A stretch of DNA of 20,000 bases from Vermamoeba vermiformis (taxonomy: Eukaryota), in the NCBI GenBank assembly GCA_045837725.1, contig JBEWZL010000205.1, positions 51,631 to 71,630 on the forward strand. Direction: 5' to 3'. The first letter of the stretch is position 1. Every line of letters begins with the position of its first letter. The position numbers and the translations under genes were made by a program. The notes beneath the pieces are model-generated. The model ran no database searches and was not told the origin of the DNA. It saw only the letters and a program-made list of their open reading frames with translations. Shown piece by piece: positions 1-18,721 of this stretch.

Positions 1-2095
1 AAGTCATGTGAGTGCCAGGAATAATCTTTGCACAGCACTTGGCTACAGCTCTGGTCATAGCAGAAGGATCTTGTGGGTTGCCATTTTGAAAGCCAAGCCA
101 AAGAGCCAAAGGATCTTCATCAGTTTGAACCAAAAATGGTCTAACTTTCTCGAGAAAGAATTTGAAGAATGGATTGCAGTCAGCAGGGAAAGGAATCTTC
201 TTGACAAACTTTCTGAGCTTCTTTTCCTTGAAGTCTGGGCTAATGATGTAGCATTTCTTCTTGTTGCTGAATTTGAAGTTGTCTCTGGTCATGTGAATGA
301 TCAGCTCTTGACGCTGGCCTCCAATTTTGAAGTGACAGAGCATTTGAATCCAAGACTGAATGTTGTAGCAGATGCGATGAGTGTCAGTGGCAGAAGCCAA
401 GCCAATGGTGTCGTCCCAAGCTTGAATAGATTTGTTCAACTTGATGAAAGTTGTTGCATGAACTTCCTTTAACTGCTGAGCAGTGATAGCTTTGCCATCA
501 GCAAGGAGTTGATCAAAACAGGGTCTATCTATTTGGCTGACTTGTTGCTGCTGTTTCATCAGTCTTCGAAAGTGACCAGCCTGTTGAGCAACAATCCAAA
601 GTTCTCCTCCGAAAGGACGCAGGCACTCGACTTCTGCCAGCAACCACTCGCATACTTTTTGAGTGTACTTGGCTTTGTTGTTGGCAGTGTTGGGAGAGCC
701 GGCACGGAAGCGACAGTACTAGTGGAAAGCGCGCATTCTCTTGGAGGACAAGAAGCAAAGCCACCCAGGACAAGAGCCTTCATATTCCATGCAAAAGGTC
801 CACAAGTTCTTCAAGTAAGTGGCAACACCAGTAACAACAGAGTAGAACTTGTTGTAGTTAATTTGGCGGTTTCTTGCCAAATTTACTGTTTCTCTCTTAT
901 GCTTTTGCTTGTAGTCATGCAGGACATTCCAAAAAAAGGAGAGAAGGAAGGGAAAATCAGCTTCAAATTGTTTGTGCTGCGCTTTGGTGAGCCATGCAAA
1001 TCCTTTGCCTTCAAGCTCTGCAGGCCAGTCAAAAGTTGTGTATTCTGTAGGCCATCTCCCTTCTTTGAGCTTGCGTGTAGCATTTTGGGGATAAGAAGCT
1101 TTTGCCCAGTTAGGTCTTTGATCCACATTATTTGTTTTAAGAGACGAGGCTTGGAATTGAAGGTCTTGAACAATCCCATAGTCATTCCCTTCATAGGTGT
1201 CTTCTAGGTCAATGCCAAGCTGAGACAAAGTAACCTCAGAGAAGTCAACAGGTTTGAAAGCAGGCTCCAGGTTGTTGCCATCTTTGTCTTTAAGGAAAAA
1301 CCCAATTTGATGCAGGTAAGACTCCTTTTGTTTCATTGTCATGCCGCTGTCTTCATCTTCTTGTTTGTCTTGGTCTTCCTCTTCTTGTTCACCATCACTG
1401 GCATTGTCGGTGAGGTCAACTACTGTATGCTTGGTTCTTTCAGCTTCACTGTCCAAGTCCAAGTTACTTTGCATGCCAACAGCATTATCGTCTTCTTCAT
1501 AGCTTTGTTCGTTAAAGTTGAGCGCTTGGCGAGTCAAGTACTCCTGGAATTCACTTTCATGCTCTCTGTCTATTGCTGGATCAAACAGATCAAAGCTAGT
1601 GAGGAACAAAGTAAGCAACTGAATGCAATACTAATTAGATTATCCTTTTACCTTTGATTACGGCTGCTTCCCTCCTCAATAATCTGGGTTTGATCGTTGT
1701 CGATCTCTTGTGCTTCGCCATTCAAAGCTTCTGTCAGCCTACATAAAGAATAAGGGCATTGTAAAGGGCTTTTCAAAGACGTACTGATTGCTGGACACAG
1801 CCACTGCAAGTTGAGCTCGATCCGACCTCAAAAAAGCTTTTGTAGGCTTGAAACTGCTGCGTTGTTTGACCTCCAAGCTAACCGTGCAGCTCTGCAAAAG
1901 TTCTTCTAACAGGGGATTATTCTTTGCAAGAGCATAAGCAATTGACGACTGCACGCTTTGACCATTAGGAACCACAATGTAAATCGTCGAATTGCGAGCG
2001 TTAAAGTAGACGTCGCACTCGTGGCCTTTTGTCTGCTCAAATGCCTGCTGTATTGAAGTTAAAAAAGGCACTGTAACCTGAGACGTGGCGTTCAT
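1..2095 (-). pseudogene. Intron-containing tyrosine recombinase (phage-integrase superfamily), truncated by the window edge, with one in-frame TAG at 719-721
   Basis: Exons 2095-1785, 1738-1652 and 1595-<1 (introns GTACGT..TAG and GTAAAA..TAG keep the frame). The frame continues open for 239 codons past the TAG: ...HFKIGGQRQELIIHMTRDN (box I Arg, codon 311-313)...DFKEKK...FFKFFLEKVRPFLV...LWLGFQNGNPQDPSAMTRAVAKCCAKIIPGTHMT. This is the typical YR motif order; the box II H-x-x-R and the catalytic Tyr would lie just outside the window. Confidence 0.8.
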
Positions 2096-2533: not shown

Positions 2534-2549
2534 AGGGTTAGGGTTAGGG
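2534..2549 (+). repeat. Short interstitial telomere-like repeat (AGGGTTAGGGTTAGGG)
   Basis: About 2.7 copies of the TTAGGG hexamer, read directly. Confidence 0.6.
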
Positions 2550-2935: not shown

Positions 2936-2963
2936 TTGCGTATTCTATTTTCATTCACATCAG

Positions 2964-3179
2964 CATCAAACAGGATGCACGATTATCGTGCACGCATGCG
3001 CATCAGACAGAGCGTACGATTATCGTGCACACATGCGTGCCAGACAGGGCGTACGATTATCGTGCACGCATGCGCATCAGACAGAGCGTACGATTATCGT
3101 GCACGCATGCGTACCAGACAGGGCGTACGATTATCGTGCACACATGCACATCAGACAGGGCGTACGATTATCGTGCACA
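2964..3179. repeat. 37-bp tandem repeat (~6 copies) with a palindromic core
   Basis: Core ACGATTATCGT at 2979, 3016, 3053, 3090, 3127 and 3164 (exact 37-bp period). Unit GTACGATTATCGTGCACGCATGCGCATCAGACAGAGC. Confidence 0.97.
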
Positions 3180-3180
3180 G

Positions 3181-4135
3181 GAGTGGGCACCTAGAATTCC
3201 ATGAGTGGGCACCTGGGATTCCGGGCACCTAGAATTCCGGGCACTTAGAATTCTGGGCACCTGGGATTCCGGGCACCTAGGATTCTGTGACTGGGCACCT
3301 AGGATTCCGTGGGCACCTAGAATTCCGCGCACATGACTGGGCACCTAGGATTCCGTGGGCACCTAGGATTCCGGGCACCTAGAATTCTGTGAGTGGGCAC
3401 CTGGGATTCCAGGCACCTAGAATTCCGTGAGTGGGCACCTGGGATTCCGGGCACCTAGGATTCCACGCACATGAGTGGGCACCTAGGATTCCGTGGGCAC
3501 CTAAATTTCCGTGAGTGGGCACCTAGGATTCCGTGAGTGGGCACCTGGGATTCTGGGCACCTAGGATTCCGTGAGTGGGCACCTGGGATTCCGGGCACCT
3601 AGAATTCCGTGAGTGGGCACCTGGAATTCCATGAGTGGGCACCTGGGATTCCGGGCACCTAGAATTCCGTGAGTGGGCACCTAGGATTCCGTGAGTGGGC
3701 ACCTGGGATTCCGGGCACCTAGGATTCCGTGAGTGGGCACCTGGGATTCCGGGCACCTAGGATTCCGCGTACATGAGTGGGCACCTAGGATTCCGGGCAC
3801 CTAGAATTCCGTGACTGGGCACCTAGGATTCCGTGACTGGGCACCTAGGATTCCGTGAGTGGGCACCTGGGATTCTGGGCACCTAGAATTCCGTGAGTGG
3901 GCACCTGGGATTCTGGGCACCTAGAATTCCGTGAGTGGGCACCTGGGATTCCGGGCACCTAGAATTCCGTGAGTGGGCACCTGGGATTCCGGGCACCTAG
4001 AATTCCGCGCACCTAGAATTCCGGGCACCTAGAATTCCGTGACTGGGCACCTAGGATTCCGGGCACCTAGGATTCCGTGAGTGGGCACCTGGGATTCCGG
4101 GCACCTAGAATTCCAGGCACATGACTGCACACCTA
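3181..4135. repeat. GC-rich minisatellite of GGGCACCTRGRATTCC (16 bp) with or without GTGAGT (22 bp), roughly 50 units
   Basis: Read directly; 16- and 22-bp units often alternate into a 38-bp higher-order unit. Confidence 0.97.
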
Positions 4136-4226
4136 AATTCAAACAGCCCTGCTGACTAAACTTTATGTGCCCACTAAATTCCTACATTTGTGTCACTCCC
4201 TGAACTTGCTTTTAAAACTCCTTTGC

Positions 4227-4261
4227 AAAAAATGGCTACCAAACATTAGTATCTAATTTTT
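4227..4261. promoter_or_regulatory. 35-bp palindromic site, intergenic copy
   Basis: AAAAAATGGCTA-ccaaacattag-TATCTAATTTTT. Confidence 0.7.
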
Positions 4262-4413
4262 AACATGAAAAAGTAGTGTAACTGAAATACCACTTAGGAC
4301 ACTGCTTTCCCTACCATGCTATCCTTGGACAATGTATGAGTGTGTCTGATATGATCAGACACACTAAGAATTGAACTTGGATAGCTACAAAGTCATTACA
4401 TTGTCCTGAAACT

Positions 4414-5978
4414 TTATTTATTTTTAGAGCCTAAGCGTACAGATGGGAATGAATTGTTCTTCATTTGCTGAACAAAACCCATGTCCTTATTCATTACAGT
4501 TTGTCGTTTTGCGTGAATAGCTGCAGCTTGAGACATCACAAATAGATCTGTGAGGAAATATTCAGAGGACAATTGTAGAGCTTCAAGAGCAACTGCTTGC
4601 CAGCGAACACCTTCTAAGTCACTATCACGGGTTAGATCTTCAGTTACTTCACGGACAAGGCGCTGGAAACCTCGACGTGACATCAGAAGTGTGGTGCTGT
4701 TTTGATAAAATTTGATTTCAGCCATGCCTATTAAAAATTATTAATAATGAACTAGTATAAATTTACTGAACTTACGTCTACTTGCAAGGCTTTGATTCAC
4801 GTTCTTCTTAGCCTTGAACACCTTGGGCTGCAAATGTTTTAATTACACACGTGTTTATGAAATTAGTTTAAATGATGATATAACTTACTCTTTTCGTTGG
4901 ACGAGAGTTTGAATCTGCACCTGATGCCTTTCGTTTCTGTCCTCTCTGTAAGATAAGACTGTGAGATTACTTATCAATTTACTAACAATATTACCTTCGG
5001 TTCATTCTCATTCTTATCGTCAACTACTCGTTTTCTCTTCTTTGCCTTCTTGTTGGCGACGGTTTTGTTTGTTGCACCTCTCTGCAATAATGTTAGGTCA
5101 TACTATTAATTAAATTACTTACCTTTGTCATGTACTCCTCTTCATCGACCTTGCCGACACTCTTTCTTTTCTTGTTTGGCTGTTTGGCAGGGGCTTGTTG
5201 CTTGGCAGTGTCCGCTTGTTTGCCACTCTCCGATCCTGATTGTCGTAGTTTGGCATTGCCGTCTTTGTTGCCTTCATCAGCAGCAACATTGGTGTCTTCA
5301 GCCTCACTGTCGCGTTTCTCGCCACCCCCTTCTTCTTCTTCAGCCTCACCATCGTCATTGTTACCGCGTTCTTTTTCGTGCTCGCTGTGTTCGCCTTCTT
5401 CTGGCGCTGCACCTTCAACGTTTTGGTTGTTTTGGGCTAATTCCTAAATAAAAATTAGCTATTGTTTGCTCATAGCCAATAAAACTGTACTGCATTAGCG
5501 TCGGTGATCTCAACAACTTCCTCGATCTCACCAGCCAAACGTGCTGATCGTCTGGGTGAATTACCAACACCATCATCTTGGGTCGCACGAGCTTTGTGGC
5601 GAGCTTTAGCTCCAGGCCTATTTCGTCTTTTACCGGTCCTGATTGAAGTACATTATTAAACGTGTTTTAATTATTAATTTCATCGAAAAAAAGCATCTTG
5701 GAAATTTGCCCCGTAAATAAAGATTAATGATTAAAATTACTTACTTTTGGCCTGATTTATTTGAAGATTTTTTTTTCGATTTATTCTTATTAGTAGACTG
5801 GGAATTAGACCTAATTATGCCGTTAATAATATTTAATTTTGACGATAAATATTTTATTCATAATTGTACACTACGTACTTATTTCCAGAGGCCACCCGAC
5901 CAGATCTGTTAACTATTGTAAATATCTAATAAACAAACTTATTATATGAGCTTACATTTCGTGTGGGGAACGAGGCAT
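4414..5978 (-). CDS. Divergent histone H3 variant (CenH3-like) with a very long charged N-terminal tail, 364 aa, 9 exons
   Basis: Exons 5978-5956, 5905-5879, 5810-5745, 5638-5491, 5443-5123, 5081-4995, 4945-4889, 4827-4776 and 4727-4414, all GT-AG and frame-consistent (first two exons less certain). The C-terminus EIKFYQNSTTLLMSRRGFQRLVREV...VRWQAVALEALQLSSEYFLTDLF...AIHAKRQTVMNKDM aligns with the H3 histone fold. Confidence 0.9.
5450..5484. promoter_or_regulatory. 35-bp palindromic site in a histone-gene intron (5444-5490)
   Basis: AAAAATTAGCTA-ttgtttgctca-TAGCCAATAAAA. Confidence 0.75.
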
Positions 5979-6077
5979 GTGGTGTTTGATTTGGGTACGA
6001 TAGATTTTTGTTTCGATTTTAACGGTAACCAAAAAACCTTCGGCCACTAGCAAAAAGCAACAGATAGACCAACAGCA

Positions 6078-7042
6078 ATGTTAAATTTAAGGTACGTATT
6101 AAATCGCAAATAATTTTTTTTTGCCTCTTGGCGCAGATCAAATAATAATAATTCTTTATTTATTTTTAAAATAATTAAAATACTTCGTAGGCTAGTAGCA
6201 AAAGATTTCTTAGTTGCCGCTAGCAAGGAACAACTATTTGCATCGGTTCTTGGAGTGCACCAAGTAACCGGAATTGCTGTACCAACGATTAAAAAATATG
6301 CCTTGGAAAAAAATATTGGTAAGCCATTGAATATCAATTACTATTCCATTTCTGATATGACATTAGGACGAAAATTATTACCGGGAGAGATCCCGCCTGA
6401 AATTGCATCCAAGATGCATAAATTAAAGGTTGAAGGGTATTGGTTTGATGTCGCCGACATCAATTCCCTTCTACGGATAATCAGCACCAAGACCAGCAAC
6501 AAAGAACAACTCAAGACAATAAGGTAAGGATTAAAATTTTAACGACCAATTAAACTCACCAAAATTTTATAGGGAAGGACTCAAATCAACAACCTTGAAC
6601 AAAATTATAATGGTCGCTTGGGATGGCTCGAATTTTAAGGTACGTGATTTTTAAAATTAAAATAATTATTTAATTAACCAATTTTGAGTTGCTTTGGAGA
6701 GAATCAACTGACGAGGTTTCTGCCGATGAGAGTGATCCAACACTCTTATCGACTGCAGACGCTGAATTTTTAGCGAGTGAGGAACTGCTCGCCAAGGGTT
6801 GGAAAGCAATACCCAACCGAGCAGAACACATCGCAAAAATTTATAATATTGATATCTCACAAATTGAGACGCCAGTGAAAGAAGCGGAAACAATTCCTAT
6901 TTTGGACAACTTACACAATTTTTACACGAACGCTGCGGCAACAAGTGCATCGGACGAGGATCTATCTGGCGAGGAATTTGAAGACCTAGACTCATCAGAA
7001 GAGAGCCAATCAAAAGAAAGTAGCTCGGAGGATTTTGTTTAA
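6078..7042 (+). CDS. Hypothetical 255-aa protein, possible N-terminal helix-turn-helix, acidic C-terminal tail, 4 exons
   Basis: Exons 6078-6091, 6191-6523, 6573-6639 and 6689-7042 join in frame. The segment SVLGVHQVTGIAVPTIKKYA resembles a MerR/excisionase-type HTH (by eye only). Divergent from the histone gene across ~100 bp. Confidence 0.75.
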
Positions 7043-7055
7043 CGTTAATAAATAT

Positions 7056-8583
7056 TTATTTAAAAATATTATCAATTTTCTTTTCTAAAAAATACAACTT
7101 TCTTGCTCGGCCTCCAGCTCGACGTGCTCCTCTCTGTGCAGAAGAACGCCCCGATGTACCTTTGGGCTGGTGGTTTGACGGCTCGATCTCTGGCAATGGC
7201 AGGCTTAGGAGGCTGGCCTTCGTACGGTCTCGAAGTCTAATGCTCTGCGTTGTCATTAGACATTATTAGATATAATTATATTATTATTTATATCTCGATT
7301 AGACATTATTATTTTATTTTAAACTTACCTCTTTTTGCGGCGATCCTAGCGTGATCTTTTTATCCGCCTCACCCCACCACATGTACGGTCCAACACCAAG
7401 ACCATGAGCCCCAAAGCCTGTCGTCTGCGTTGATTCTTTGTGCCAACTTGCTGGCATCTCGGATAATTCCTCTTCTTTAAGATCGGGCACAAAAATCGTT
7501 GCCTGAGACTTCGTTATTTTCATTTCTCGTGCACCGGCCTTCGTCAGCCCTGCTGTCAATCGCGCTACCGGCACTCGATGCTCTGGGTCCAAATTAACAG
7601 AGCTCGCTCGGTAGACTTTGATGAAAATGGCCCTGAACGAGAGCCATTCCCGCTCATCAAACTCGGTTGGCGGCACGTATGGTCTATTGGCCATATAGCC
7701 AATCATGAAGTCGAAGTACGCTTGAACCAAGGCAACGAACTGCTGCAAGTAACCGCGCACTATCATTGCGTCATAGAAATTTGCCCAAGGCCGAATGCCT
7801 AATTATGTAGTTAATAAATTGGCTATTATCCGTTAGTAGCCAGTATTTACCTGTATATTTGTACCACCAAAAGCAAATTTCGTTTGAAGAATACGCACCG
7901 ACACCGTTGAACATCGATTGGTTCAATAAACAGTCGATGATCGTTGCCCTCTAGTAAAATATTAGTATTAGTCGTACTGATTTGTTATTGTACTAACCTT
8001 GAAATATTTTTGGTAGGCATCATCGTTTAACAGCGCCAGCAAGTGTTCGTGCAAGTCGCCGGCAAGTACATCCGGGCCCCTGGCTGGATCCATCGCTAAA
8101 CTTGCATCAGGATGCCATTTGAATGACACCTGATTTTGTTTGGTGTGGCAATCTAATATATAGATTGCCGCACCATTGTCGGCATTTAGCGCTATGTTTC
8201 GCCGATAGTCTAATGGGCTCGTGTCGCGATCTGATATCGCACCAACGTGAAATGCTGCGCCGGTGCCCATGCCAAAGGTCATCGCGTAATTATTAAAAAT
8301 TAACGCAATTTCCTTGCCTCGTGATACTACCTACGTAAATAATAATTAATTATAACCTAATTTTAAATCAAAACTTACATCCGTAACCGTCAGCGGTAGG
8401 CACGCGCGCATTGCCTCGATCTCCGCGCTGTACTTGTTGTGAGGCACGCGCTTCTCCACTTCTACAATCCTTAAGCCAATTGCTATAAATAAAGATTAAT
8501 ACAGATTAAATTTTATTTTATTTGGAATTACCTTTTTCTTTGAGGTGCCTTGCGAAGCCCTCGATCTCTGTTTTTTCGGGCAT
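7056..8583 (-). CDS. nei: Fpg/Nei-family DNA glycosylase/AP lyase (NEIL1-like, no zinc-finger cysteines), 415 aa, 6 coding exons
   Basis: Exons 8583-8532, 8482-8379, 8330-7998, 7950-7851, 7798-7329 and 7244-7056. N-terminus MPEKTE (catalytic Pro2/Glu3), SRGKE (conserved Lys), FGMGTG, RGPD, H2TH motif IIDCLLNQSMFNGVGAYSSNEICF, GIRPW, IKVYR, and a basic disordered tail. Probable 5'-UTR intron at 8585-8625. Confidence 0.9.
7814..7848. promoter_or_regulatory. 35-bp palindromic site in a nei intron (7799-7850)
   Basis: ATAAATTGGCTA-ttatccgttag-TAGCCAGTATTT. Confidence 0.75.
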
Positions 8584-8644
8584 ACTATTAAACGGTAATC
8601 GATTAATTAACAATTAATAAATTACTTATTCAATTCGTTTAACG

Positions 8645-9589: not shown

Positions 9590-11820
9590 ACACAACTCAG
9601 CTAAAGGTCGTAATAGGTAAGTGTTCTTTATTGTTTTATTATTTATATTGTATTAATTTCTTTAGCTATCTTTACTAATTAATTTTCGTAGATTTTAATG
9701 CGCGCATCGGCTTAACCACGAGCAAAACCGCGTCAAGCCCCCACGCGCTTGGATGACCGCAGTGATGGTAAGTGTTATTTAATTCTCGCGTGAGAATACT
9801 AATTAATTTTATTTGTATTAGATTTTACAACGCATTGAAATTACCTGTGAGCGAGTCCGTGAAAAGCCCTCCGCGCTTTAATGATGAACAGTAACGCAGT
9901 ATTGATGGTAAGTTAATTATTTAATCTAGCGCGAGAATACTAATTAATTTTGTTTGTATTAGATTTTACAACGCGCATTGAAATTACCTGTGAGCGATTC
10001 GTGAAGAGCCCTTCGTGCTTTGATGAATGAACAGTAACGCAGTATTGATGGTAAGTATAATTATTTAATTCTCGCGTGAGAATACTAATTAATTTTGTTT
10101 GTATTAGATTTTACAACGCGCATTGAAATTACCTGTGAGCGAGTCCGTGAAAAGCCCTCCCGCGCTTTAATGAATAAACAGTAACGCAGTATTGATGGTA
10201 AGTTAATTATTTAGTTAATTAGTTAAGCTCGCGCTAGAATACTAATTAATTTTTACAGATTTTAGTACTAAAATGCGCATCGGGTTAGACTTGGCACAAG
10301 CAAGCCCGCACCGAGCTCTCTTTTGGCTCATCCTCTGCACTTCTTGTGCAGCATATGTGAACTATTCATGATGGCTACTCGCGTCTTGTTTCGCTAGAAC
10401 TGCGATTTCCGTGCTCTAGATTTGGTCACTGGCGCATCCGTACCGAGCCTTCCCTGCCTTGGCTCACCCTCTGCGCTTCTTCACAAGGGTCTGCGGTGTA
10501 TCGACGAACTATTCACGGTGACTACACGCGACCTGGGTCGTTGGAGACAGTGCAACACGATCTCCCGCGCATCGGATTTCTCGCTAGCGAATCCGCACCG
10601 AGCCCTCCCTGCCTTGGCTCACCCTCTGTGCTTCATCATAAGGGTGTGCGGTGTGTCGACGAACTATTCATGGTGACTACACGCGTCCTGAGTTGTTGGA
10701 GACAGCGCAACACGATCTCCCGCGCAGCAGATTTGGCAGTAGCGAATCCGTACCGAGCCTTCCCTTGCCTTGGCTCACCTCTGCGCTTCTTCACAAGGGT
10801 CTGCAGTGTGTCGACGAACTATTCATGGTGACTACACGCGTCCTGAGTTGTTGGAGACTGTGCAACACGATCTCCCGCACAGCAGATTTGGCAGTAGCGA
10901 ATCCGTACCGAACCTTCCCTTGCCTTGGCTCACCCTCTGTGCTTCATCACATGGGTGTGCAGTGTGTCGACGAACTATTCATGGTGACCACACGTGTCCT
11001 GAGTTGTTGGAGACTGTGCAACACGATCTCCCACGCATCGGATTTGGCAGTGGCGAATCCGTACCGAGCCTTCCCTTGCCTTGGCTCACCCTCTGTGCTT
11101 CATCACAAGGGTGTGCGGTGTGTCGACGAACTATTCATGGTGACTACACGCGTCCTGAGTTGTTGGAGACAGCGCAACACGATCTCCCGCGCAGCAGATT
11201 TGGCAGTAGCGAATCCGTACCGAACCTTCCCTGCCTTGGCTCACCCCCTGCTCTTCTTCGCAGGGTCTGCAGCGTGTTTACGAACTATTCGCGAAGGCTG
11301 TATGCGTTTTGGGGTCGCCGAAGTTCGAAGTAATGCGATCTCCTGTGGTTGGATTTAATCTCGAGCTAATCTGCACTGCGCTCTCTTCTGTCTTGGCTCA
11401 CCCTCTGCTTTAATGCCCGGCATCTGTACGTTCGTGGTGGTTAGGTGCGCGTTGCATCGCTGGGGACGAAGCAACACGATCTCCCACGCAGCAGATTTGT
11501 CACGAGCGAATCTGCACCGAGCCCTCCTTTGTCTTTGGCTTACCCTCCGCACTTCGTCGCAGGGTCTGCAGCGCCTTTACGAATTATTCATGGTAGACAC
11601 ACTGGATACTCGCAACACAATCGAGCACATCTCGGATGTAATGCGCAACGAGGCTCGCACTGAGTTCCAGATGCGTTACACGATTGCCGCAGGTCACTTC
11701 AAAGCCTGCAGCATCTTCATGAGCTATTCGTGATAGTTACAACATGGATGTTGAGACAAATGCAACGTGTGTAGTTCAGGATCTTGTTAATGTTGTTAAT
11801 AAAATGTAAAATAAATGTAT
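9590..11820 (+). ncRNA. Putative spliced long non-coding RNA built from tandem repeat units
   Basis: Five consensus introns (GTAAGT...CTAAT...YAG) at 9617-9691, 9768-9821, 9908-9962, 10051-10107 and 10198-10258. The internal exons checked (9692-9767, 9822-9907) have stops in all three frames. AATAAA motifs near 11798-11815. Transcript ends are approximate. Confidence 0.55.
10270..11770. repeat. ~155-bp tandem satellite (~10 units, central 5-6 nearly identical)
   Basis: Marker GAACTATTC at 10359, 10506, 10661, 10816, 10972, 11128 and 11282 (periods 147, 155, 155, 156, 156, 154), with degenerate copies near 11430, 11581 and 11721. Confidence 0.95.
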
Positions 11821-12005: not shown

Positions 12006-14813
12006 ATGTCTTTATTACAAAAATTAGAGGCAAATCTAGACAAAATTCTAAAAGAAAATGTCTCGTCGGGAGACTTCAAATTGCCCAATTTTAAGCAAAA
12101 TTTGAATTTCTTTTTAGATTACATTACCAAAAAATTTCCCTGTTTTGCCGATCAACCCCAGAAAGAAATATCTGGGTTGATTAAGGGCAAAATTGCTGCT
12201 ATTAACCCAACAGGATTTGTATCTGATGGTCAATTGCCAACTCCAAATGCAAAGCGTATCTGGGTAACGGCCTTTTATTCTCATCTCTTGCTTGGTAAAT
12301 CTTTTTCTTCACAGGAAAGTGTCCAAGATTGGGTAGCAGAAACATGGCCGGATCTCCAAGTACCTGTCCAGGCTTTCCAAGCAGCTTATATTTTGTTGAG
12401 CGAGTACTCTGATTCTCCACCAAGAGGTGCCAGAACCTCCAAGAGGAATGCTAGTTCTGGTGTGCAATTAGAAGTAAGACCTTGCAAATTCCAGCTATCA
12501 GCGATTAATAGCTTTGTTTTGTTGCTTAGGCGGGAGCTGCTGAAATTTCTGCTTCAATGGACTCAACCTCAAGAGATTCTGACGAGGAAGAGGAATCAGA
12601 CATAAGTCCTGGGCCTATCAAGGGTGCTCTCAGGCAAAATCCAAAGAGAGTGCAAAAGCTCAACCTGGATGAAAAGTTAGCGGATGATTCCAGTGTAGAT
12701 GAAGCTGAAATTGGGACTGGCAGTGATGTTGTTGTGAGTGATGACAGTAGGTCCCAGGGGCATGATAGCGACTCTCAACATGATGCCGAGCTAGAATCCG
12801 AGTTTAGCAATGATGATGTGATAAGTACTGAAACTGTCCAGCCCCCAGTACTGGATGAACATGAAGGAAATGCTCTAGAGCTGCTTGCCTGTTCAGCTTT
12901 GGATTTTCCCTCTGAAAGTAAGCAAAAACTAGCTACCATTGATTGATAGCTGATTTACTTTTGCAGATGACCCCGATGTCAGCAATAGTGTTACTTTTGC
13001 AACAAAAGCTTCAAGCCAACTTTCCAAAGCCAGTGTGAGGCAGGCTAGTGTTAAGCCAAAGGAAAATATTGGGTCACACGTCAACACAACAGAAAATGAG
13101 ACCGTGGCTACTGTCACAGCAGACTTGCCAAAACAACAGTCTTGTACACCTCAAAGTAAGCAAAAATGAGCTACCACAAGCCAATAGCTAATTATTTTAC
13201 AGGTTTGAGTCCTACTGTTGCAAATATTGTTAGTATGCTGATGGCTAAGGCATCAACAGGTTAGCTTACCATTACAATGTCTAATTAACGCCATTAACAA
13301 TATTGAAAACAGATCCTGAAAAACTTGGTGTACTGTGTGTGGCATACTTATCTGCAGTTCACTCATCTATGGTTGTCGAAGATAACAAATTGATTGCAGT
13401 GCGAGTGAATAATGAAACATGTAAGTGCCTCTATCTTTCCTATATTTTACAAACATTTTCTTACATTTAAAGCATAGTCAAATTCAAAAAGGGCATCCAT
13501 ATTGATGTGGAAGTAAGATGGTCTGACGAGTCTTCAAGCTCTTCGGAAGAAAGTTCCAAAAGTTCTAGAGAAATGAGATCTTCCAAAAGTTCTAAAGAAA
13601 AGAGGTCCAAACACAAGATACAAGAAGAAAGATCACAAAGTTCTACAGAAATGAAGTCTAGATCTAAGACACAGCATGGTGTTAAGGACAAAAAGAATGA
13701 TTCAATGGAGGTTTCTGAAGGCTCAAGTTTGCAATCAACTAATGCCATCGAGCCACAAAAAGAGTCAATCACATCTCAAGCCTCTGGTGCAGTAACCTGT
13801 GATAGTGCCCAAAAAAGTGGTTTGCAATCGAAGAAAAGAAAATCTGGAAGCATTGCTGAAGATGAATTGCCTAGCCCTTTAGACAATTCAAGACCTCAAG
13901 GATTTGCTGCATTAATCAGAGAGCTTGGCCTTGAAGGTAAGTTGCAGCCAACCAATTGACATTTTCTTACAATTTTTGTAGAAAAAACAATGGCGTTCTT
14001 GGAAAGACTCATCAAAAAGAATTACATCAATGAGGGCCTTTTCCAAACTTTTTCGACAGCAGCCCAAAGTGTAGTGCACAAGCCAGTAGAAATATTGTGT
14101 CCTACAGTGGACTACATGCCTAAACAGTTTTTGCAAACCTGGTTTGATCCTTCTTTGGGAAGTGTGAACAAAGATGAACTATTGGTTTGGATGGCCTCGA
14201 GCATGGAGACAATCTGTCCAACATACCTGAGCATCACGGTATGCAAAAACAAGCTATAAACTCATGATAGCTGATAATTTTGAATAGGTTTATGTAAAGC
14301 TAATGGTTTTTGTGCTGGCAACTGTTCTTCGGGCATGGTCAATGACTATTCAGACTGAGCTCCAAAATTCCTCAGAGTATGCTTCAACTCCAAATGCTGC
14401 ATCCATTGCATCCAAGACAAACGAGCAGTTACTGCAAAGGCTCGCAAAACATCCTCAGTTTGAGAAGCTGTGCAATATGGATTTGTTTCCTAGGAACTTT
14501 TACAAAACAACAACGCCAAAACAAACTTTTAGAACGTAAGTGCACATCAAAATGGCATTATTTCTAAGATGTTTTCATTTTTAGGTGTAAAAGTGAAATG
14601 CTCAAATTCTTGGAGCTTTGTCGCTTAGTACCTGCTTTATTGTTTTGTGAGTTGCCATATTCTTCAATCATCAGGCACTCTCCCACATTCACAGAGTTTG
14701 AAAAGGGTTGGACCATCTTAAAGAAGGATGTCCGTGCAAAGGACTTTTTACACCTGGCATATTTCACTGAAATTCCTATGCCAGTAGCCATTCCAAGCTA
14801 TTTACTTCAATAG
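12006..14813 (+). CDS. Hypothetical ~800-aa protein with long acidic and Ser/Lys-rich disordered regions, 9 exons
   Basis: Exons 12006-12473, 12530-12917, 12967-13155, 13203-13259, 13313-13420, 13478-13936, 13982-14238, 14288-14535 and 14585-14813 splice in frame with GT-AG introns. No family recognised; KKRK is a possible nuclear localisation signal. Confidence 0.85.
12486..12520. promoter_or_regulatory. 35-bp palindromic site in intron 12474-12529
   Basis: AAATTCCAGCTA-tcagcgattaa-TAGCTTTGTTTT. Confidence 0.7.
12924..12958. promoter_or_regulatory. 35-bp palindromic site in intron 12918-12966
   Basis: AAAAACTAGCTA-ccattgattga-TAGCTGATTTAC. Confidence 0.75.
13162..13196. promoter_or_regulatory. 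35-bp palindromic site in intron 13156-13202
   Basis: AAAAATGAGCTA-ccacaagccaa-TAGCTAATTATT. Confidence 0.75.
14245..14279. promoter_or_regulatory. 35-bp palindromic site in intron 14239-14287
   Basis: AAAAACAAGCTA-taaactcatga-TAGCTGATAATT. Confidence 0.75.
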
Positions 14814-14897
14814 ATTTTTTTCTCCCGACGAGTTTTTTTTCGATCTGTTGAGTAATTTCAAGTAGTTTATTCTACTAAATAAATTGTATTTGTAGTC

Positions 14898-17800
14898 ATG
14901 GACTCGGCTGGTTATCTCAACCATATATCTTCAGATCTTTATGCTGATCCTTATGCGGACTCCTTCAATGATTTTTCCTCAGACTTGGCTCCACACTATA
15001 TGGATGAACTTGAAAGTCTTGATTTGGAAGACCGAATGGATGTTGGGTCAGTTTTAACCCCAGTGCATGAAACAGCCCCAGTAAGTTATTGACATTCATT
15101 GTACAGTAAAAAATGTTTAATTTTGTTGAAAGGAGTTGTGGAGTTTGGAACAATACAAGTCTGCACACCCACAAACTGTGTTGTTTGTTCAAGACTTTTG
15201 TAAGCTGTCGGCAGAAGACCAAAGGAAAGTTATTTACAAACTTGAAAAGTATGTAATCATTACACTACATGTTTATTTACTGAGTTTTGTCTTTAGTTTC
15301 GATGAAAACGCTTCAAAGTGTGCTGAGCTGCCAAGACATCTGGCATCTGCTTTGAAAAAGAGCATAGATAGATTACAACCTGCTTCTGTATACACTAGTC
15401 AGTTAATGGAAGCAGTTAGAGTTGTGTCGACAAAGTCTCTTCCTGTCATTGGGGACCAGTCACCGCTAAAGCACTCAATTCTTCAAAAACACAAACAAAT
15501 TCCATGGCACGAGTGGATAAACAGTCCAGTCATGTACTCTCTAGACAATGTTGAGCCAAATCTTGGAGAAAACAACTTTAACACAACTATTGACATTGAT
15601 GCAACCATCGTCCACTCGAATACCTTGCATGTCATGAAACAAGGGTTCAGATTGTTTAGCAACCCAAGGTATCACCACCAAGCTGCAAAGATTAAGCATG
15701 CATACAAGGGAAAGTCTTTACATCGAGTAGTGCATGTTGAGATTGGGTAAGAAAACAATACTAAATCTATACATTAATAATCAATTTTCAGTGAGTTGGC
15801 TGGCAAATACAAAGTATATGCATGCTTTACCAACTTTCCTTCTTGGTACAACAAACAGGCAGATCTTGTACGAAAGTTTTATGAGTGCGTATTGAAAGGT
15901 ATGCAAAAATTAGCTATAGCTCATTCGTATCCAGTTTTTAACAATGAAATCTTTAGGAATCAAGCATGGTCCTCAATCAGGACAGGTTGGAATTTTCAAA
16001 GATATAGATCAGTACCTGAGCGCTACATCCTTTGCAGACCGTCAGCATATTGATATCCAACCAGATTCTTTCAAGTTCATTGAGAATTCTATATCACAGT
16101 TCAAATATGACGAGAAAAAGTAGGGTATTAATTCAATTTACTATGCTAACAAGATTTTAGAGTGGATGTATGTTACTCTTTCCAATACTTTGGAGCAAAA
16201 GAGGTTGTTACTCCAACTGGTTTTAAAGCTCACATGGATTTAATTGGGTCAATATTTGACATTGCAGGCATTGTTGATCCTTCAAACAAAATGCTTGATG
16301 ATACAGTTTATATTCAAGATCTAGCTCTTACAATCAGGTATCTTGCTCTCAACAATTGGAATTCTTATACTGATTTCATGTATTAGTCCTGTTAAAGAAC
16401 AACGCCATAAAATTGCGTTGCTATGGAACCCAGAATTCCTAGGGTCATTAGGCAAGCAGGATTCATCCCCTTTAAAAAGATTACTGAAGGCAAATGAACG
16501 AAGTGAACAGCCTACAAAAGAAGTTTACCCAAAGGGCTCTACAATTCTTTATCCAAATTTGGGAATGGGTCAAATTACCAGTTGTATGGTCGATTGGTCT
16601 TCAACAAAGGGTGCTATTAGAGAAATCAAAGGATACTGCTCAGTGAGCAAAATTTGGCGCTTAAATGCTCCGTATGAAGATACTTGCTACTCTGTAGCCG
16701 CTCTACCTCTGGCTCCAATGTTGAGCAATTCTGATATAGATGACCATGTGTGGAAAGCTCTTGATGACCGGTGCGTTGTCATTAACTTGTTTATTGTTTC
16801 CATTGCTAATTAGATTTAGTGTTCACAAAATAATTGCTTCATTTGAAAAGCACTTGGAAAATGAAAAGATCTACAACATCTGCCAGGCTCTTCAAGAAAC
16901 AACAGCTGGCGTCAGACTAGAAATAAGTTTCCAAAATCTTGGGTCTGAGCGACTACAGCAAGCTTATAAAGAGCTGGAAGAGTTATCACAGTCCATTCTC
17001 AAAACTCACTTGGGATTGCAAACTCTGTACCAACAAGAGTACATTCCATTGGAGAGCATGCGATTTAGTCCTTTGCAAATAGTTACTACTTGCTCTGTAA
17101 CAGCTCTAACTGAATTCCAAGCAAAGTCGATGAACTGCATGTTTGAAAAAATTCTCGAGCAGGTTATCAAAGGTAAAAACAAGCTACCGAGTGATCATAG
17201 CTAATTTTTGTATAGAAGGAACAAACAACACTAGCATAGATACGGTAAATGCCCTTGCTGTTCTGGAGGATGTATGTACATGACACGAATTCAAAATCTG
17301 TGTTATTAATTTGAATGGTCTGCTCTACAGCTACAGAAATTGTTGTGGTCTGGTAGTATTCCTACTCTTCATAATCCTTCGCTATTCAAAGCATATAATG
17401 TAATTGGTTGGATCAACAAGTACAATAGAGTGTATCTACCGCCATCAGTGTTCCGTTACAACCATCAGTCTCCTGCTAAGAGCTCCTGCATTTTGAAGTC
17501 TTTGGTTAATACTGTTGATGATACAGAAGGGGCGGACCCAGAAGTGTTTCGTACAGGATTAATGGCTCCTAATTTAGCAATCACAAATAGATTCTTATAC
17601 CAAGCATTTGGGGAGAACAGCAAAAAAGTAGCAGAAGTGTGCAAGACAATCAACGACATGGTGATTGTGAAGTTGAATGGCCAATCAAAATTGCTACAGC
17701 CAACTTATCTTTCGCAAACAATGATCATTGCCACAAATTTGCTGAACAAGCTGTTTGAATGCTTGTTGTCTGAAATGGCCATTCCAAGCACTCAACATCA

Positions 17801-18721
17801 CAAAGTCTTTCAGCTGCTTCGAAATGAGCTACCTTATGAAATTGCAAACGCTAGATCCAATGCCAAAATTACAACAATCAAGGGCTTTGTACGCAACTGC
17901 TTTCCTTTAGACAATCCTGCTGCATCCATTGAAAAGCAACCGTTCTTTGCACTTTGGGTGGAAACTGTTGCATCGTTGAACCATGTCAATAAGTATGTAA
18001 AAACAAGCTATCAAGTAGCGGTAGCTAATTTTTGCACAGGAGCATGCATTTTGCAGCATATTGCGATGTAAAAGAAAAGAATGGAGTGGGCTATCCAGTA
18101 AACAAGACGATATATGCAGAGGATATCCAAAAACAAATGATTATTGTGTTGTTCAACAGTGAAATACGATGGCTACCATCTCTTGGGTCCAATTCATTGG
18201 TGCTCAAGGATAAGGCTGGCAAGTTTGTTTTGGACAAGGTGGCTCTGCAATTCAAGTCAAGCATATTTCCTGATTGCAAAATGACTGCAAAAGATGGAGA
18301 ATTGCTTCCTCATCCAGTTGATGGATCCTTCATCCACATGCTTGCTGTGCAGGTTGGAACTCTCGCTGCAAAAAAGAGAGAAGCTGAGGTTGCTGCTTAC
18401 AAACAGGCAAATCCAGATTATAACAAGCCCAGAGTTATTCGAACAGGTGCGATTAGCAAAGTGTCCACTTACAATGCACAAACAGTGAAGTATAGCGCTG
18501 CTGAGATTATTGGACAGTTGTTATTTCAGTACTTCCACATGCCAGTGCATGAACAGATGCCCGCATCCGAAGCTGAAAAGTACAAAACATCTGTTAATAC
18601 ACACAACTCCTCAAAAAAGGCCATTGTTGCTACCAAGATGCTTCGAGAAGCTACACATGGACGTGGATACCAGCGACTTTCTCTTGATGATTTGTGGAGA
18701 TTGCACATAAGTTTGAAGTAG
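14898..18721 (+). CDS. Large hypothetical protein, ~1112 aa, 11 exons
   Basis: Exons 14898-15080, 15133-15248, 15297-15746, 15792-15898, 15957-16119, 16161-16337, 16387-16770, 16814-17172, 17216-17271, 17331-17992 and 18040-18721 join in frame. Globular-looking core with motifs IDID, LHRVVHVEIG, YFGAKE, QDLALTI, KGYCSVSK and GVRLEISF. Confidence 0.85.
15905..15939. promoter_or_regulatory. 35-bp palindromic site in intron 15899-15956
   Basis: AAAAATTAGCTA-tagctcattcg-TATCCAGTTTTT. Confidence 0.7.
17175..17209. promoter_or_regulatory. 35-bp palindromic site in intron 17173-17215
   Basis: AAAAACAAGCTA-ccgagtgatca-TAGCTAATTTTT. Confidence 0.8.
17999..18033. promoter_or_regulatory. 35-bp palindromic site in intron 17993-18039
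   Basis: AAAAACAAGCTA-tcaagtagcgg-TAGCTAATTTTT; arms identical to the 17175 copy, spacer different. Confidence 0.8.

What the first reader, a model, noticed from the sequence alone, without database searches (positions are those of the whole stretch)
4414..5978. CenH3-like histone with a ~260-aa tail located between satellite arrays
Seen, relative to canonical H3: loop 1 is 5 residues longer (TEDLTRDSDLEGVRW vs AQDFKTDLRF), F84 is W, T107 is S and C110 is A. The tail has no canonical ARTKQ sequence and alternates basic and acidic blocks. Known: a long loop 1, F84W, loss of T107 and a divergent tail are CenH3 hallmarks, but Q68 (FQRLVRE) is retained here, unlike in most CenH3s. Inference: either an unusual host CenH3 or an element-borne centromeric-histone mimic that could seed a centromere on the element's own repeats or interfere with host centromeres.
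Basis: partly seen in the sequence, partly recalled or inferred. Interest (0 to 1): 0.8.

Follow-up and report, generated by a model that had tools for sequence, protein, structure and literature searches.

The report
Long-tailed centromeric-type histone H3 gene
This is an intact seven-exon gene for a centromere-type histone H3 with a long charged tail, most likely the ordinary centromeric histone of a poorly sampled eukaryote; nothing found shows that a mobile element carries it.

Summary
On the minus strand, 4414-5978, seven GT..AG exons give a 333-aa protein. Its last exon is an H3-type histone fold (Pfam Histone, E 2.5e-19). Against canonical H3, loop 1 is 5 residues longer, F84 is W, T107 is S, C110 is A and Q68 is kept. 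The tail is about 230 aa, not 260, in basic-acidic-basic blocks. The best solved relatives are Cse4/Cnp1, not H3.

The fold lies in a well-supported clade of 8 divergent proteins, 34-60% identical to each other. One member, P0152, has a collinear long tail, and a sister record reads into an intron at the same place. So this is a conserved, spliced gene family with CenH3 hallmarks.

The "element-borne mimic" idea is neither supported nor excluded:
- A tyrosine-recombinase gene with a chromodomain-like end lies 2.8 kb away but has an in-frame stop.
- The neighbours are intron-rich genes without known families.
- No terminal repeats and no viral relatives were found.
- The flanking "satellites" are short arrays of 0.2-1.2 kb.

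No whole genome was available, so copy number and a second CenH3 could not be checked. Verdict: new member of a known kind, modest interest.

The parts
5956..5978 (-). Exon 1 (23 nt): ATG plus 7 codons, donor GTAAGC. Inferred only; no homologue or RNA covers it.
   Evidence: Exon 2 has no in-frame ATG, so an upstream start exon is needed. This is the first ATG that splices in frame.
5491..5638 (-). Exon 2: basic start of the tail (K/R-rich), followed by a 47-nt intron.
   Evidence: Reading through the intron hits a stop. One search shows this intron resembles the hairpin intron family of the neighbouring genes.
5123..5443 (-). Exon 3: acidic block, then a basic KKRK-containing block.
   Evidence: Collinear with P0152.
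4995..5081 (-). Exon 4: basic tail segment.
4889..4945 (-). Exon 5: tail segment with the motif shared with P0152 (RKRK-x-SG...RP).
   Evidence: P0153 reads into an intron right after the homologous RPKK.
4776..4827 (-). Exon 6: last tail segment, phase-1 junction into the histone fold.
   Evidence: The junction is supported by the uninterrupted alignment to P0152.
4414..4727 (-). Exon 7: alphaN, histone fold and a 15-20 aa C-terminal extension. The TAA stop is embedded in AATAAA.
   Evidence: Pfam Histone E 2.5e-19; PDB Cse4 5.6e-19; hallmarks; predicted helices 2-11, 17-28, 37-73, 79-91.
2963..4114 (.). Context: 37-bp array (2963-3178) and 16/22/38-bp array (3181-4114) downstream of the gene.
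9763..11290 (.). Context: 145-bp x 3.1 (9763-10213) and 155-bp x 5.6 (10418-11290) arrays upstream. Degenerate copies run to about 11589.
2..1630 (-). Context: putative tyrosine-recombinase gene with a chromodomain-like C-terminus. It runs off the left end and has an in-frame TAG at 719-721.

Best explanation
The locus is an intact nuclear gene for a CenH3-type (centromere-specific) histone H3 variant of an unidentified, poorly sampled eukaryote. It is most likely that organism's own centromeric histone.

Inferred mechanism, from established knowledge of CenH3/CENP-A:
- The C-terminal histone fold pairs with H4 and replaces H3 in centromeric nucleosomes.
- The lengthened loop 1 and altered alpha2 (the CATD region) give chaperone-dependent targeting.
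- The 230-aa basic-acidic-basic tail and the family-specific C-terminal extension recruit kinetochore components.

Shown here: the gene structure, the H3-type fold, the CenH3 hallmarks, membership of a conserved and rapidly diverging clade, and a tail and intron position shared with a relative.

Inferred, not shown: centromere localisation, H4 pairing, and being the only CenH3 of the genome.

The nearby recombinase gene and tandem arrays are read as neighbouring repeat/transposon DNA, not as parts of one unit with the histone gene.
For: 1. A clean seven-exon model: six GT..AG introns of 41-317 nt and a 333-aa ORF.
2. Pfam Histone at E 2.5e-19.
3. The 11 best of 176 PDB sequences are Cse4, Cnp1, CENP-A chimeras or a Cse4 fusion (61.5-71.2 bits). 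Plain H3 starts at 58.4 bits.
4. Hallmarks against canonical H3: loop 1 +5, F84W, T107S, C110A, and no ARTKQ. Identity to canonical H3 over the fold is 41%, typical of CenH3.
5. In the 1.84-billion-protein library no hit exceeds 53% identity. Named hits among the 150 listed include S. cerevisiae Cse4 (P0073) and Rhodotorula Cse4 (P0031).
6. The query sits in a clade of 8 rows with 99% SH-aLRT: query, P0012, P0013, P0016, P0020, P0026, P0030 and P0123. Pairwise identity is 34-60%, and the query is not an outlier. This is the fast divergence expected of CenH3. The H3-Q68 position varies within the clade.
7. P0152, which shares a 90% cluster with P0016, aligns with the spliced model over 240 aa across four exon junctions (36% identity, E 1e-37). 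P0153 diverges exactly after the homologous RPKK, as an unspliced intron would. So tail architecture and an intron position are conserved, and the relative's open reading is a spliced form.
8. Intron 2 of the gene resembles the hairpin intron family of the neighbouring genes, so the gene is at home in this genome.
9. Long CenH3 tails are known: 170 aa in Cyanidioschyzon and over 520 aa in Dictyostelium (passage read in PMC9145170).
10. There is one H3-like locus in the window.
Against: - No genome was available, so a second, more conventional CenH3 and the copy number are unknown.
- Q68 is retained in this protein.
- The neighbourhood is unusual for a housekeeping gene. Across two Pfam scans and a PHROGs scan, every neighbouring ORF scanned lacked a family above cut-off. 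A recombinase gene lies 2.8 kb from the stop, and tandem arrays lie on both sides.
- Three RNA-seq runs carrying the same species label gave 2, 1 and 0 partly fitting reads on 4150-8600. The tool itself says this is no test unless the organism is shown to be in those runs, which I could not check.
- Exons 1 and 2 have no homologue or RNA support.
- The H3 tree is largely unresolved: 108 of 148 inner branches are open. So the clade is not shown to be sister to known CenH3s.
Confidence: 0.68

Rival explanations
1. A lineage-specific H3 variant or CenH3 paralogue with a non-centromeric or specialised role (for example germline- or stage-specific), while another gene is the main CenH3.
For: - CenH3 duplications are reported in many lineages (titles and abstracts only, in the listing: Drosophila, mosquitoes, Caenorhabditis, cereals, cowpea, Chlamydomonas).
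- The whole clade has unusual features: hydrophobic residue + Met where H3 has Glu-Asp at the end of alpha2, and a conserved C-terminal extension.
- There was essentially no RNA signal in the labelled RNA runs (not a valid test by the tool's own caveat).
Against: - The clade has 8 members, each from a different 50%-identity cluster, with no sign of two clade members from one source.
- All tested hallmarks fit CenH3.
- No second H3-like gene lies in the window.
Confidence: 0.17
2. Cargo of a large tyrosine-recombinase-mobilised element (Starship- or Crypton-like). The element carries its own CenH3-like histone, which could chromatinise the element's tandem arrays or interfere with host centromeres.
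For: - A 408-aa recombinase-like protein (P0159, 100% identical to window 2-718 minus) has a C-terminal stretch, residues 327-381, that hits only chromodomains in the PDB (5 of 5 hits, E 0.04-0.5). Pfam Chromo scores E 0.16.
- The same recombinase-plus-chromodomain layout is described for Kirc, the recombinase that the Enterprise paper credits with moving that giant transposon (figure legend read in PMC8092012).
- A 70% identical relative exists elsewhere (P0160).
- Atlas features place the ORF near recombinase-like clusters (0.92-0.96).
- All neighbouring genes lack known families.
- Near-identical DNA occurs in three water metagenomes.
Against: - The recombinase matches no Pfam recombinase family, DUF3435 included, at E up to 1.
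- It carries an in-frame TAG at 719-721 with no intron around it. This looks like a decaying transposon copy.
- No terminal inverted or long direct repeats bracket the region.
- Word depth in the metagenome is similar over the gene and its neighbours, 2.4-7 against 3-6.6. This is weak evidence.
- The histone family is deep and divergent with a conserved intron and tail, as for a vertically inherited host gene.
- The two literature searches (terms 'CenH3' + 'transposon-encoded' + 'histone'; 'tyrosine recombinase' + 'chromodomain' + 'Crypton') gave no report of a transposon-borne CenH3.
Confidence: 0.1
3. A histone of an integrated or free nuclear-replicating giant virus.
For: - Some giant viruses encode H3-like histones, have spliceosomal introns and are rich in ORFans. 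The clandestinovirus H3-like protein has a longer loop 1 (passages read in PMC9145170).
- The neighbours are ORFans.
- Identical DNA is present in water metagenomes.
Against: - Six introns in a 1-kb CDS, and intron-dense neighbours with a shared intron family.
- No relative in 2.9 million IMG/VR contigs for the histone (single protein and family profile), the recombinase or two large neighbour exons.
- No viral hallmark family in Pfam or PHROGs.
Confidence: 0.03

Closest known systems
CenH3 / CENP-A family, best solved matches Kluyveromyces lactis and S. cerevisiae Cse4 (2yfw, 2yfv, 6qld, 6uph) and S. pombe Cnp1 (9lrv)
   Same: H3-type histone fold with a lengthened loop 1, W at H3-F84, loss of T107, and a divergent N-tail without ARTKQ. 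It scores higher against these than against any H3.
   Different: - Loop 1 is 5 residues longer than in H3. In the alignments the query carries 2 more residues than K. lactis Cse4 there.
- Q68 is kept.
- Hydrophobic residue + Met stands where H3 and Cse4 have acidic residues at the end of alpha2.
- There is a 15-20 aa extension after alpha3.
- Identity is only about 45-50%.
Unnamed environmental clade P0012, P0013, P0016/P0152, P0020/P0155, P0026, P0030, P0123
   Same: - Clade support is 99% SH-aLRT.
- All 8 share the [ML][AS]Q-x-AA-x-HA motif (the pattern used; alignment).
- W84 is present in 7 of 8.
- Six of the 7 relatives have a C-terminal extension; P0030 ends early.
- P0152 shares the long tail with its acidic and basic blocks and the RKRK-x-SG...RP motif.
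   Different: - Identity is only 36-48%.
- The query's C-terminal extension is shorter and lacks the conserved Tyr after alpha3.
- Their genomic context could not be fetched.
Long-tailed CenH3s (Dictyostelium over 520 aa, Cyanidioschyzon 170 aa; passage in PMC9145170)
   Same: A very long, low-complexity N-terminal tail on a CenH3 fold.
   Different: No sequence similarity of the tails was tested. Those sequences were not in hand.
Kirc, the tyrosine recombinase credited with moving the fungal giant transposon Enterprise (PMC8092012, figure legend read)
   Same: The neighbouring gene has a recombinase-like core followed by a C-terminal chromodomain-like stretch.
   Different: - No DUF3435 or other Pfam recombinase match.
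- No zinc finger was seen.
- In-frame stop.
- No element ends were found.
- No evidence links it to the histone gene.

Membership tests
CenH3 / CENP-A | H3-type histone fold | tested here: met
   Pfam PF00125 E 2.5e-19, 70.2 bits against a cut-off of 26.4. Helix pattern alphaN-alpha1-alpha2-alpha3 in the model, pLDDT 62.6.
CenH3 / CENP-A | Loop 1 longer than in H3 | tested here: met
   +5 residues.
CenH3 / CENP-A | Loss of the conserved H3 residues Q68, F84 and T107 (criterion recalled from the literature, not from a call) | tested here: inconclusive
   F84W and T107S are met; Q68 is kept. In the clade Q68 is variable, Q in 3 of 8.
CenH3 / CENP-A | Divergent N-terminal tail lacking the canonical H3 tail | tested here: met
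   230-aa tail with no ARTK(Q). No Pfam family on the tail exons.
CenH3 / CENP-A | Closer to verified CenH3s than to H3 | tested here: met
   The top 11 PDB sequences are CenH3-type at 61.5-71.2 bits; H3 scores at most 58.4. The tree does not resolve deep placement.
CenH3 / CENP-A | Localises to centromeres and nucleosomes with H4 | not testable with these tools
   Needs ChIP, CUT&Tag or tagging. No H4 of this organism was in hand.
CenH3 / CENP-A | The (usually single) CenH3 gene of the genome, syntenic in relatives | not testable with these tools
   No genome is held. The relatives' contigs are 1-7 kb and could not be fetched.
Starship/Crypton-type recombinase-mobilised cargo element | Intact tyrosine recombinase of a recognised family | tested here: not met
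   No Pfam recombinase hit at E up to 1. In-frame TAG. The recombinase motifs are my own reading of P0159 plus Atlas leads. The structure model was unusable, pLDDT 34.
Starship/Crypton-type recombinase-mobilised cargo element | Defined element ends, target-site duplication or insertion polymorphism enclosing the histone gene | tested here: inconclusive
   No terminal repeats in the 20-kb window. The ends could lie outside it.
Giant-virus (Nucleocytoviricota) histone | Viral hallmark genes nearby, or relatives in viral contigs | tested here: not met
   No hits in five IMG/VR scans. No viral family in Pfam or PHROGs.

The most novel reading that the evidence does not exclude
The histone gene is cargo of a large chromodomain-guided, recombinase-mobilised element. 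That element also carries the family-less, intron-rich genes and the 145/155-bp and 16/22-bp arrays. The element-encoded CenH3-type histone would mark the element's own repeats, or compete at host centromeres, making it a selfish 'portable centromere' module.
Probability: 0.08. Interest if true: 0.9.

Novelty: new member of a known kind. Interest (0 to 1): 0.3.

Why it matters
If it is the host CenH3, it adds a divergent clade of at least 8 sequence clusters, from an unsampled eukaryotic lineage, to the catalogue of centromeric histones. The clade has three unusual conserved features: a hydrophobic end of alpha2, a C-terminal extension, and a long tripartite tail. That is useful for studies of CenH3 evolution but not surprising.

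It would matter much more if genome-wide data showed that the gene travels with the neighbouring recombinase and arrays. My two literature searches turned up no mobile element that encodes its own centromeric histone.

Tried and rejected
No H3 census, copy number or synteny was possible.
- Word-indexed homologue search of the fold: 'longer' gave none. 'near' gave only two fungal proteins at 47-49%.
- Metagenome locus scan with the family profile: one locus, L001, a marine contig. Its H3-like ORF is only 37% identical, lacks the family motif, and sits beside an AAA ATPase-like ORF and an ankyrin-repeat-like ORF (my reading of the translations). It is not a clade member and says nothing about synteny.
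- IMG/VR scans for the histone (single protein and profile), the recombinase and two neighbour exons: nothing.
- Phage collection blastn of 15130-18721: nothing, as expected.
- Rfam and tRNA scans of the window: nothing.
- Sequencing runs: no RNA holder was listed.
- Laying three RNA-seq runs with the same species label on 4150-8600 gave 2, 1 and 0 partly fitting reads, with no joints. Expression and splicing are therefore unverified.
- A water-metagenome run (X3) holds identical short contigs over exons 1 and 3-7. This shows presence only.
- Structure of the recombinase (2-sequence alignment): pLDDT 34, unusable.
- Structure of the fold (8-sequence alignment): pLDDT 62.6. Foldseek against the PDB gave only 2 weak rows, both H3 chains (E 0.07 and 0.12). 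This adds nothing beyond the sequence evidence.
- Atlas search of the 253-aa neighbour exon: best score 0.85, lead only.
- PDB sequence searches of two neighbour exons: none.
- H4 complex prediction: not run. No H4 of this organism was in hand, and an H3-fold/H4 pair would pass by likeness to solved nucleosomes.
- Earlier findings of this scan: none for this genome. Two CenH3 reports from other genomes did not bear on this one.
- Supplementary files of papers were not consulted.

Full report
**What is in the sequence**

The minus strand between 4414 and 5978 holds a split gene. A stop-to-stop ORF list and the sequence itself give seven exons: 5978-5956, 5638-5491, 5443-5123, 5081-4995, 4945-4889, 4827-4776 and 4727-4414.
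- All six introns start with GT and end with AG. Their lengths are 317, 47, 41, 49, 61 and 48 nt.
- The joined reading frame is 1002 nt, or 333 aa, and ends in a TAA embedded in AATAAA.
- Exons 3-7 are supported by a homologue (see "Relatives"). Exon 2 is supported only by coding appearance and by the stop codon inside its downstream intron.
- Exon 1 (23 nt) is supported only by the need for an ATG, so the first roughly 57 residues are inferred.

**The histone fold**

The last exon translates to 103 aa.
- It matches Pfam Histone (PF00125) at E 2.5e-19 over residues 3-84.
- Against all PDB chains, the 11 best of 176 matching sequences are Cse4, Cnp1, an H3/CENP-A chimera or a Cse4-Scm3-H4 fusion (61.5-71.2 bits). 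The first plain H3 follows at 58.4 bits.
- In an alignment of the query, a canonical H3 copy cut from hit P0004, and the 150 best library hits, the query has Q at H3-68, W at 84, S at 107 and A at 110. Its loop-1 span is 5 residues longer than in H3.
- Identity to canonical H3 over the fold is 41%.
- Among the 150 best hits, 110 have a longer loop 1, 57 have W at position 84, and 102 keep Q68.
- An AlphaFold model from an 8-sequence alignment is of modest confidence (pLDDT 62.6). It shows the expected helices at 2-11, 17-28, 37-73 and 79-91. A Foldseek search with it found only two weak H3 rows and adds nothing.

**The tail**

There are 230 residues before the alphaN-equivalent, rather than about 260.
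- They form a basic block (1-45, net +8), an acidic block (46-120, net -22) and a basic block with KKRK-type runs (121-230).
- No ARTK(Q) is present.
- Long CenH3 tails are on record: 170 aa in Cyanidioschyzon and over 520 aa in Dictyostelium, in a passage I read in PMC9145170. The length itself is therefore not exceptional.

**Relatives**

An exhaustive HMMER search of 1.84 billion representatives found 5859 proteins at E up to 0.001. None exceeds 53% identity.
- The top eleven rows are multi-stretch proteins. The two I fetched, P0003 and P0004, are tandem copies of canonical H3.
- A maximum-likelihood tree of 152 folds is mostly unresolved: 108 of 148 inner branches are open.
- The tree does place the query in a clade of 8 rows with 99% SH-aLRT: P0012, P0013, P0016, P0020, P0026, P0030, P0123 and the query.
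- Pairwise identity inside the clade is 34-60%, and the query is not an outlier.
- Clade members share three features. A hydrophobic residue plus Met stands where H3 has Glu-Asp at the end of alpha2. The [ML][AS]Q-x-AA-x-HA motif is conserved. Most have an extension after alpha3.
- The H3-Q68 position is Q in 3 of 8 and otherwise G, C, S or A. It is unconstrained, as in CenH3s, so the retained Q in the query is not a real anomaly.
- The clade members come from unnamed NCBI, Logan and JGI records on 1-7 kb contigs.
- P0152 is a 287-aa record in the same 90% cluster as P0016. It aligns with my spliced model over 240 aa across four exon junctions (36% identity, E 1e-37). It shares the acidic block, a KxRKxVGxVD stretch and the RKRK-x-SG...RP motif.
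- Its sister record P0153 departs from it exactly after RPKK, as unspliced DNA would at the position of my intron 5.
- Together these support the exon junctions. They also show that tail architecture and one intron position are conserved, and that the relative exists as a spliced open reading.
- Named proteins among the hits I looked up include S. cerevisiae Cse4 and Rhodotorula Cse4.

**Surroundings**

- Tandem Repeats Finder confirms arrays on both sides: 37-bp x 5.8 (2963-3178), 16/22/38-bp units (3181-4114, ending 300 bp from the stop codon), 145-bp x 3.1 (9763-10213) and 155-bp x 5.6 (10418-11290). Each is short, 0.2-1.2 kb.
- The left end holds a minus-strand ORF pair, 719-1630 and 2-718, in one frame and separated by a TAG at 719-721 with no intron around it.
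- The downstream part is 100% identical to P0159, a 408-aa protein, which has a 70% identical relative, P0160.
- By my own reading, P0159 carries tyrosine-recombinase box motifs. Atlas features point to recombinase-like clusters at 0.92-0.96.
- Its residues 327-381 hit only chromodomains in the PDB (5 of 5 hits, E 0.04-0.5). Pfam Chromo scores E 0.16.
- Pfam finds no recombinase family, and the structure model was unusable at pLDDT 34.
- The layout of a recombinase followed by a C-terminal chromodomain is described for Kirc, the recombinase of the Enterprise giant transposon (figure legend in PMC8092012).
- The other neighbours are intron-rich genes without any Pfam or PHROGs family above threshold: a plus-strand gene at 6255-7042, a minus-strand gene at 7314-8330, and plus-strand genes from 12006 to 18718.
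- No inverted or long direct terminal repeats bracket the region.

**Is it host or element?**

For a host gene:
- The family is deep and divergent, and its tail and one intron position are conserved.
- Intron 2 resembles the neighbours' intron family.
- The window holds a single copy.
- The recombinase gene carries an in-frame stop.
- There are no element ends and no viral relatives in five IMG/VR scans.

For an element:
- A chromodomain-like recombinase lies nearby.
- The neighbours have no known family, and arrays lie on both sides.

The decisive tests could not be run, because no genome is held and the relatives' contigs could not be fetched. Those tests are a census of H3-fold genes, copy number, and synteny or insertion polymorphism.

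Sequencing-run results:
- The DNA is present in the probable source runs at 0.98-0.99 of sampled words.
- It is present as identical short contigs in a water metagenome.
- Three RNA-seq runs with the same species label gave practically no reads on 4150-8600. By the tool's own caveat this is not a valid test of expression.

**Verdict**

This is an intact CenH3-type histone gene with a long tripartite tail, belonging to a previously unnamed, divergent clade. It is most likely the ordinary centromeric histone of an unsampled eukaryote (confidence about 0.68). A paralogue or specialised variant (about 0.17), element cargo (about 0.10) and a viral histone (about 0.03) remain possible. It is a new member of a known kind, of modest interest unless genome-wide data tie it to the neighbouring recombinase.

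Noticed in passing
window 12474-12529, 12918-12966, 13156-13202, 14239-14287, about 17169-17215, about 17993-18039 (+); weaker copy in 5444-5490 (-): A family of 43-56-nt introns shares GTA[AT]G-CAAAAAC-AGCTA-N10-TAGCT[AG]AT...AG. It has a 5-bp hairpin (AGCTA/TAGCT) that overlaps the likely branch site. There are 6 hits of AGCTA-N5-16-TAGCT against 0.23 expected in 200 shuffles (maximum 3). It looks like an introner-like or strongly constrained intron class.
   Followed up: partly
window 2-1630 (-), continuing beyond the left end (P0159): A tyrosine-recombinase-like gene with a C-terminal chromodomain-like stretch and an in-frame TAG at 719-721. A 70% identical relative (P0160) exists in another record. 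It matches no Pfam recombinase family.
   Followed up: partly
window 2535-2549: A telomere-like GGGTTAGGGTTAGGG (2.5 units) lies inside a GC-richer stretch between the recombinase gene and the 37-bp array. It may be chance.
   Followed up: no
window 10418-11589: The 155/156-bp array is GC-rich (about 55% against about 40% around it). It stays open in several reading frames over 4-5 units (ORFs of 196-238 aa). The period is not a multiple of three, so it is probably not coding.
   Followed up: no
window 12006-18718 (+): One or two long, intron-rich genes with acidic/Ser-rich stretches have no match in Pfam or PHROGs for the exons scanned, and none in the PDB or IMG/VR for the two largest exons.
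   Followed up: partly
L001 9561-9959: A marine metagenome contig carries a very divergent single-exon H3-like ORF (37% to the query). Beside it lie ORFs that look like an AAA ATPase, a RING-finger protein and a 956-aa ankyrin-repeat protein. It may be a protist or giant-virus histone.
   Followed up: no
window 4992, 5868, 7049 (run X3): Water-metagenome contigs are identical over the exons but run into unlike sequence at three points. One is the exon 4/intron 4 boundary, one lies in intron 1, and one is just past ORF 6674-7042 of the divergent neighbour gene. This suggests structural variants in non-coding DNA.
   Followed up: no
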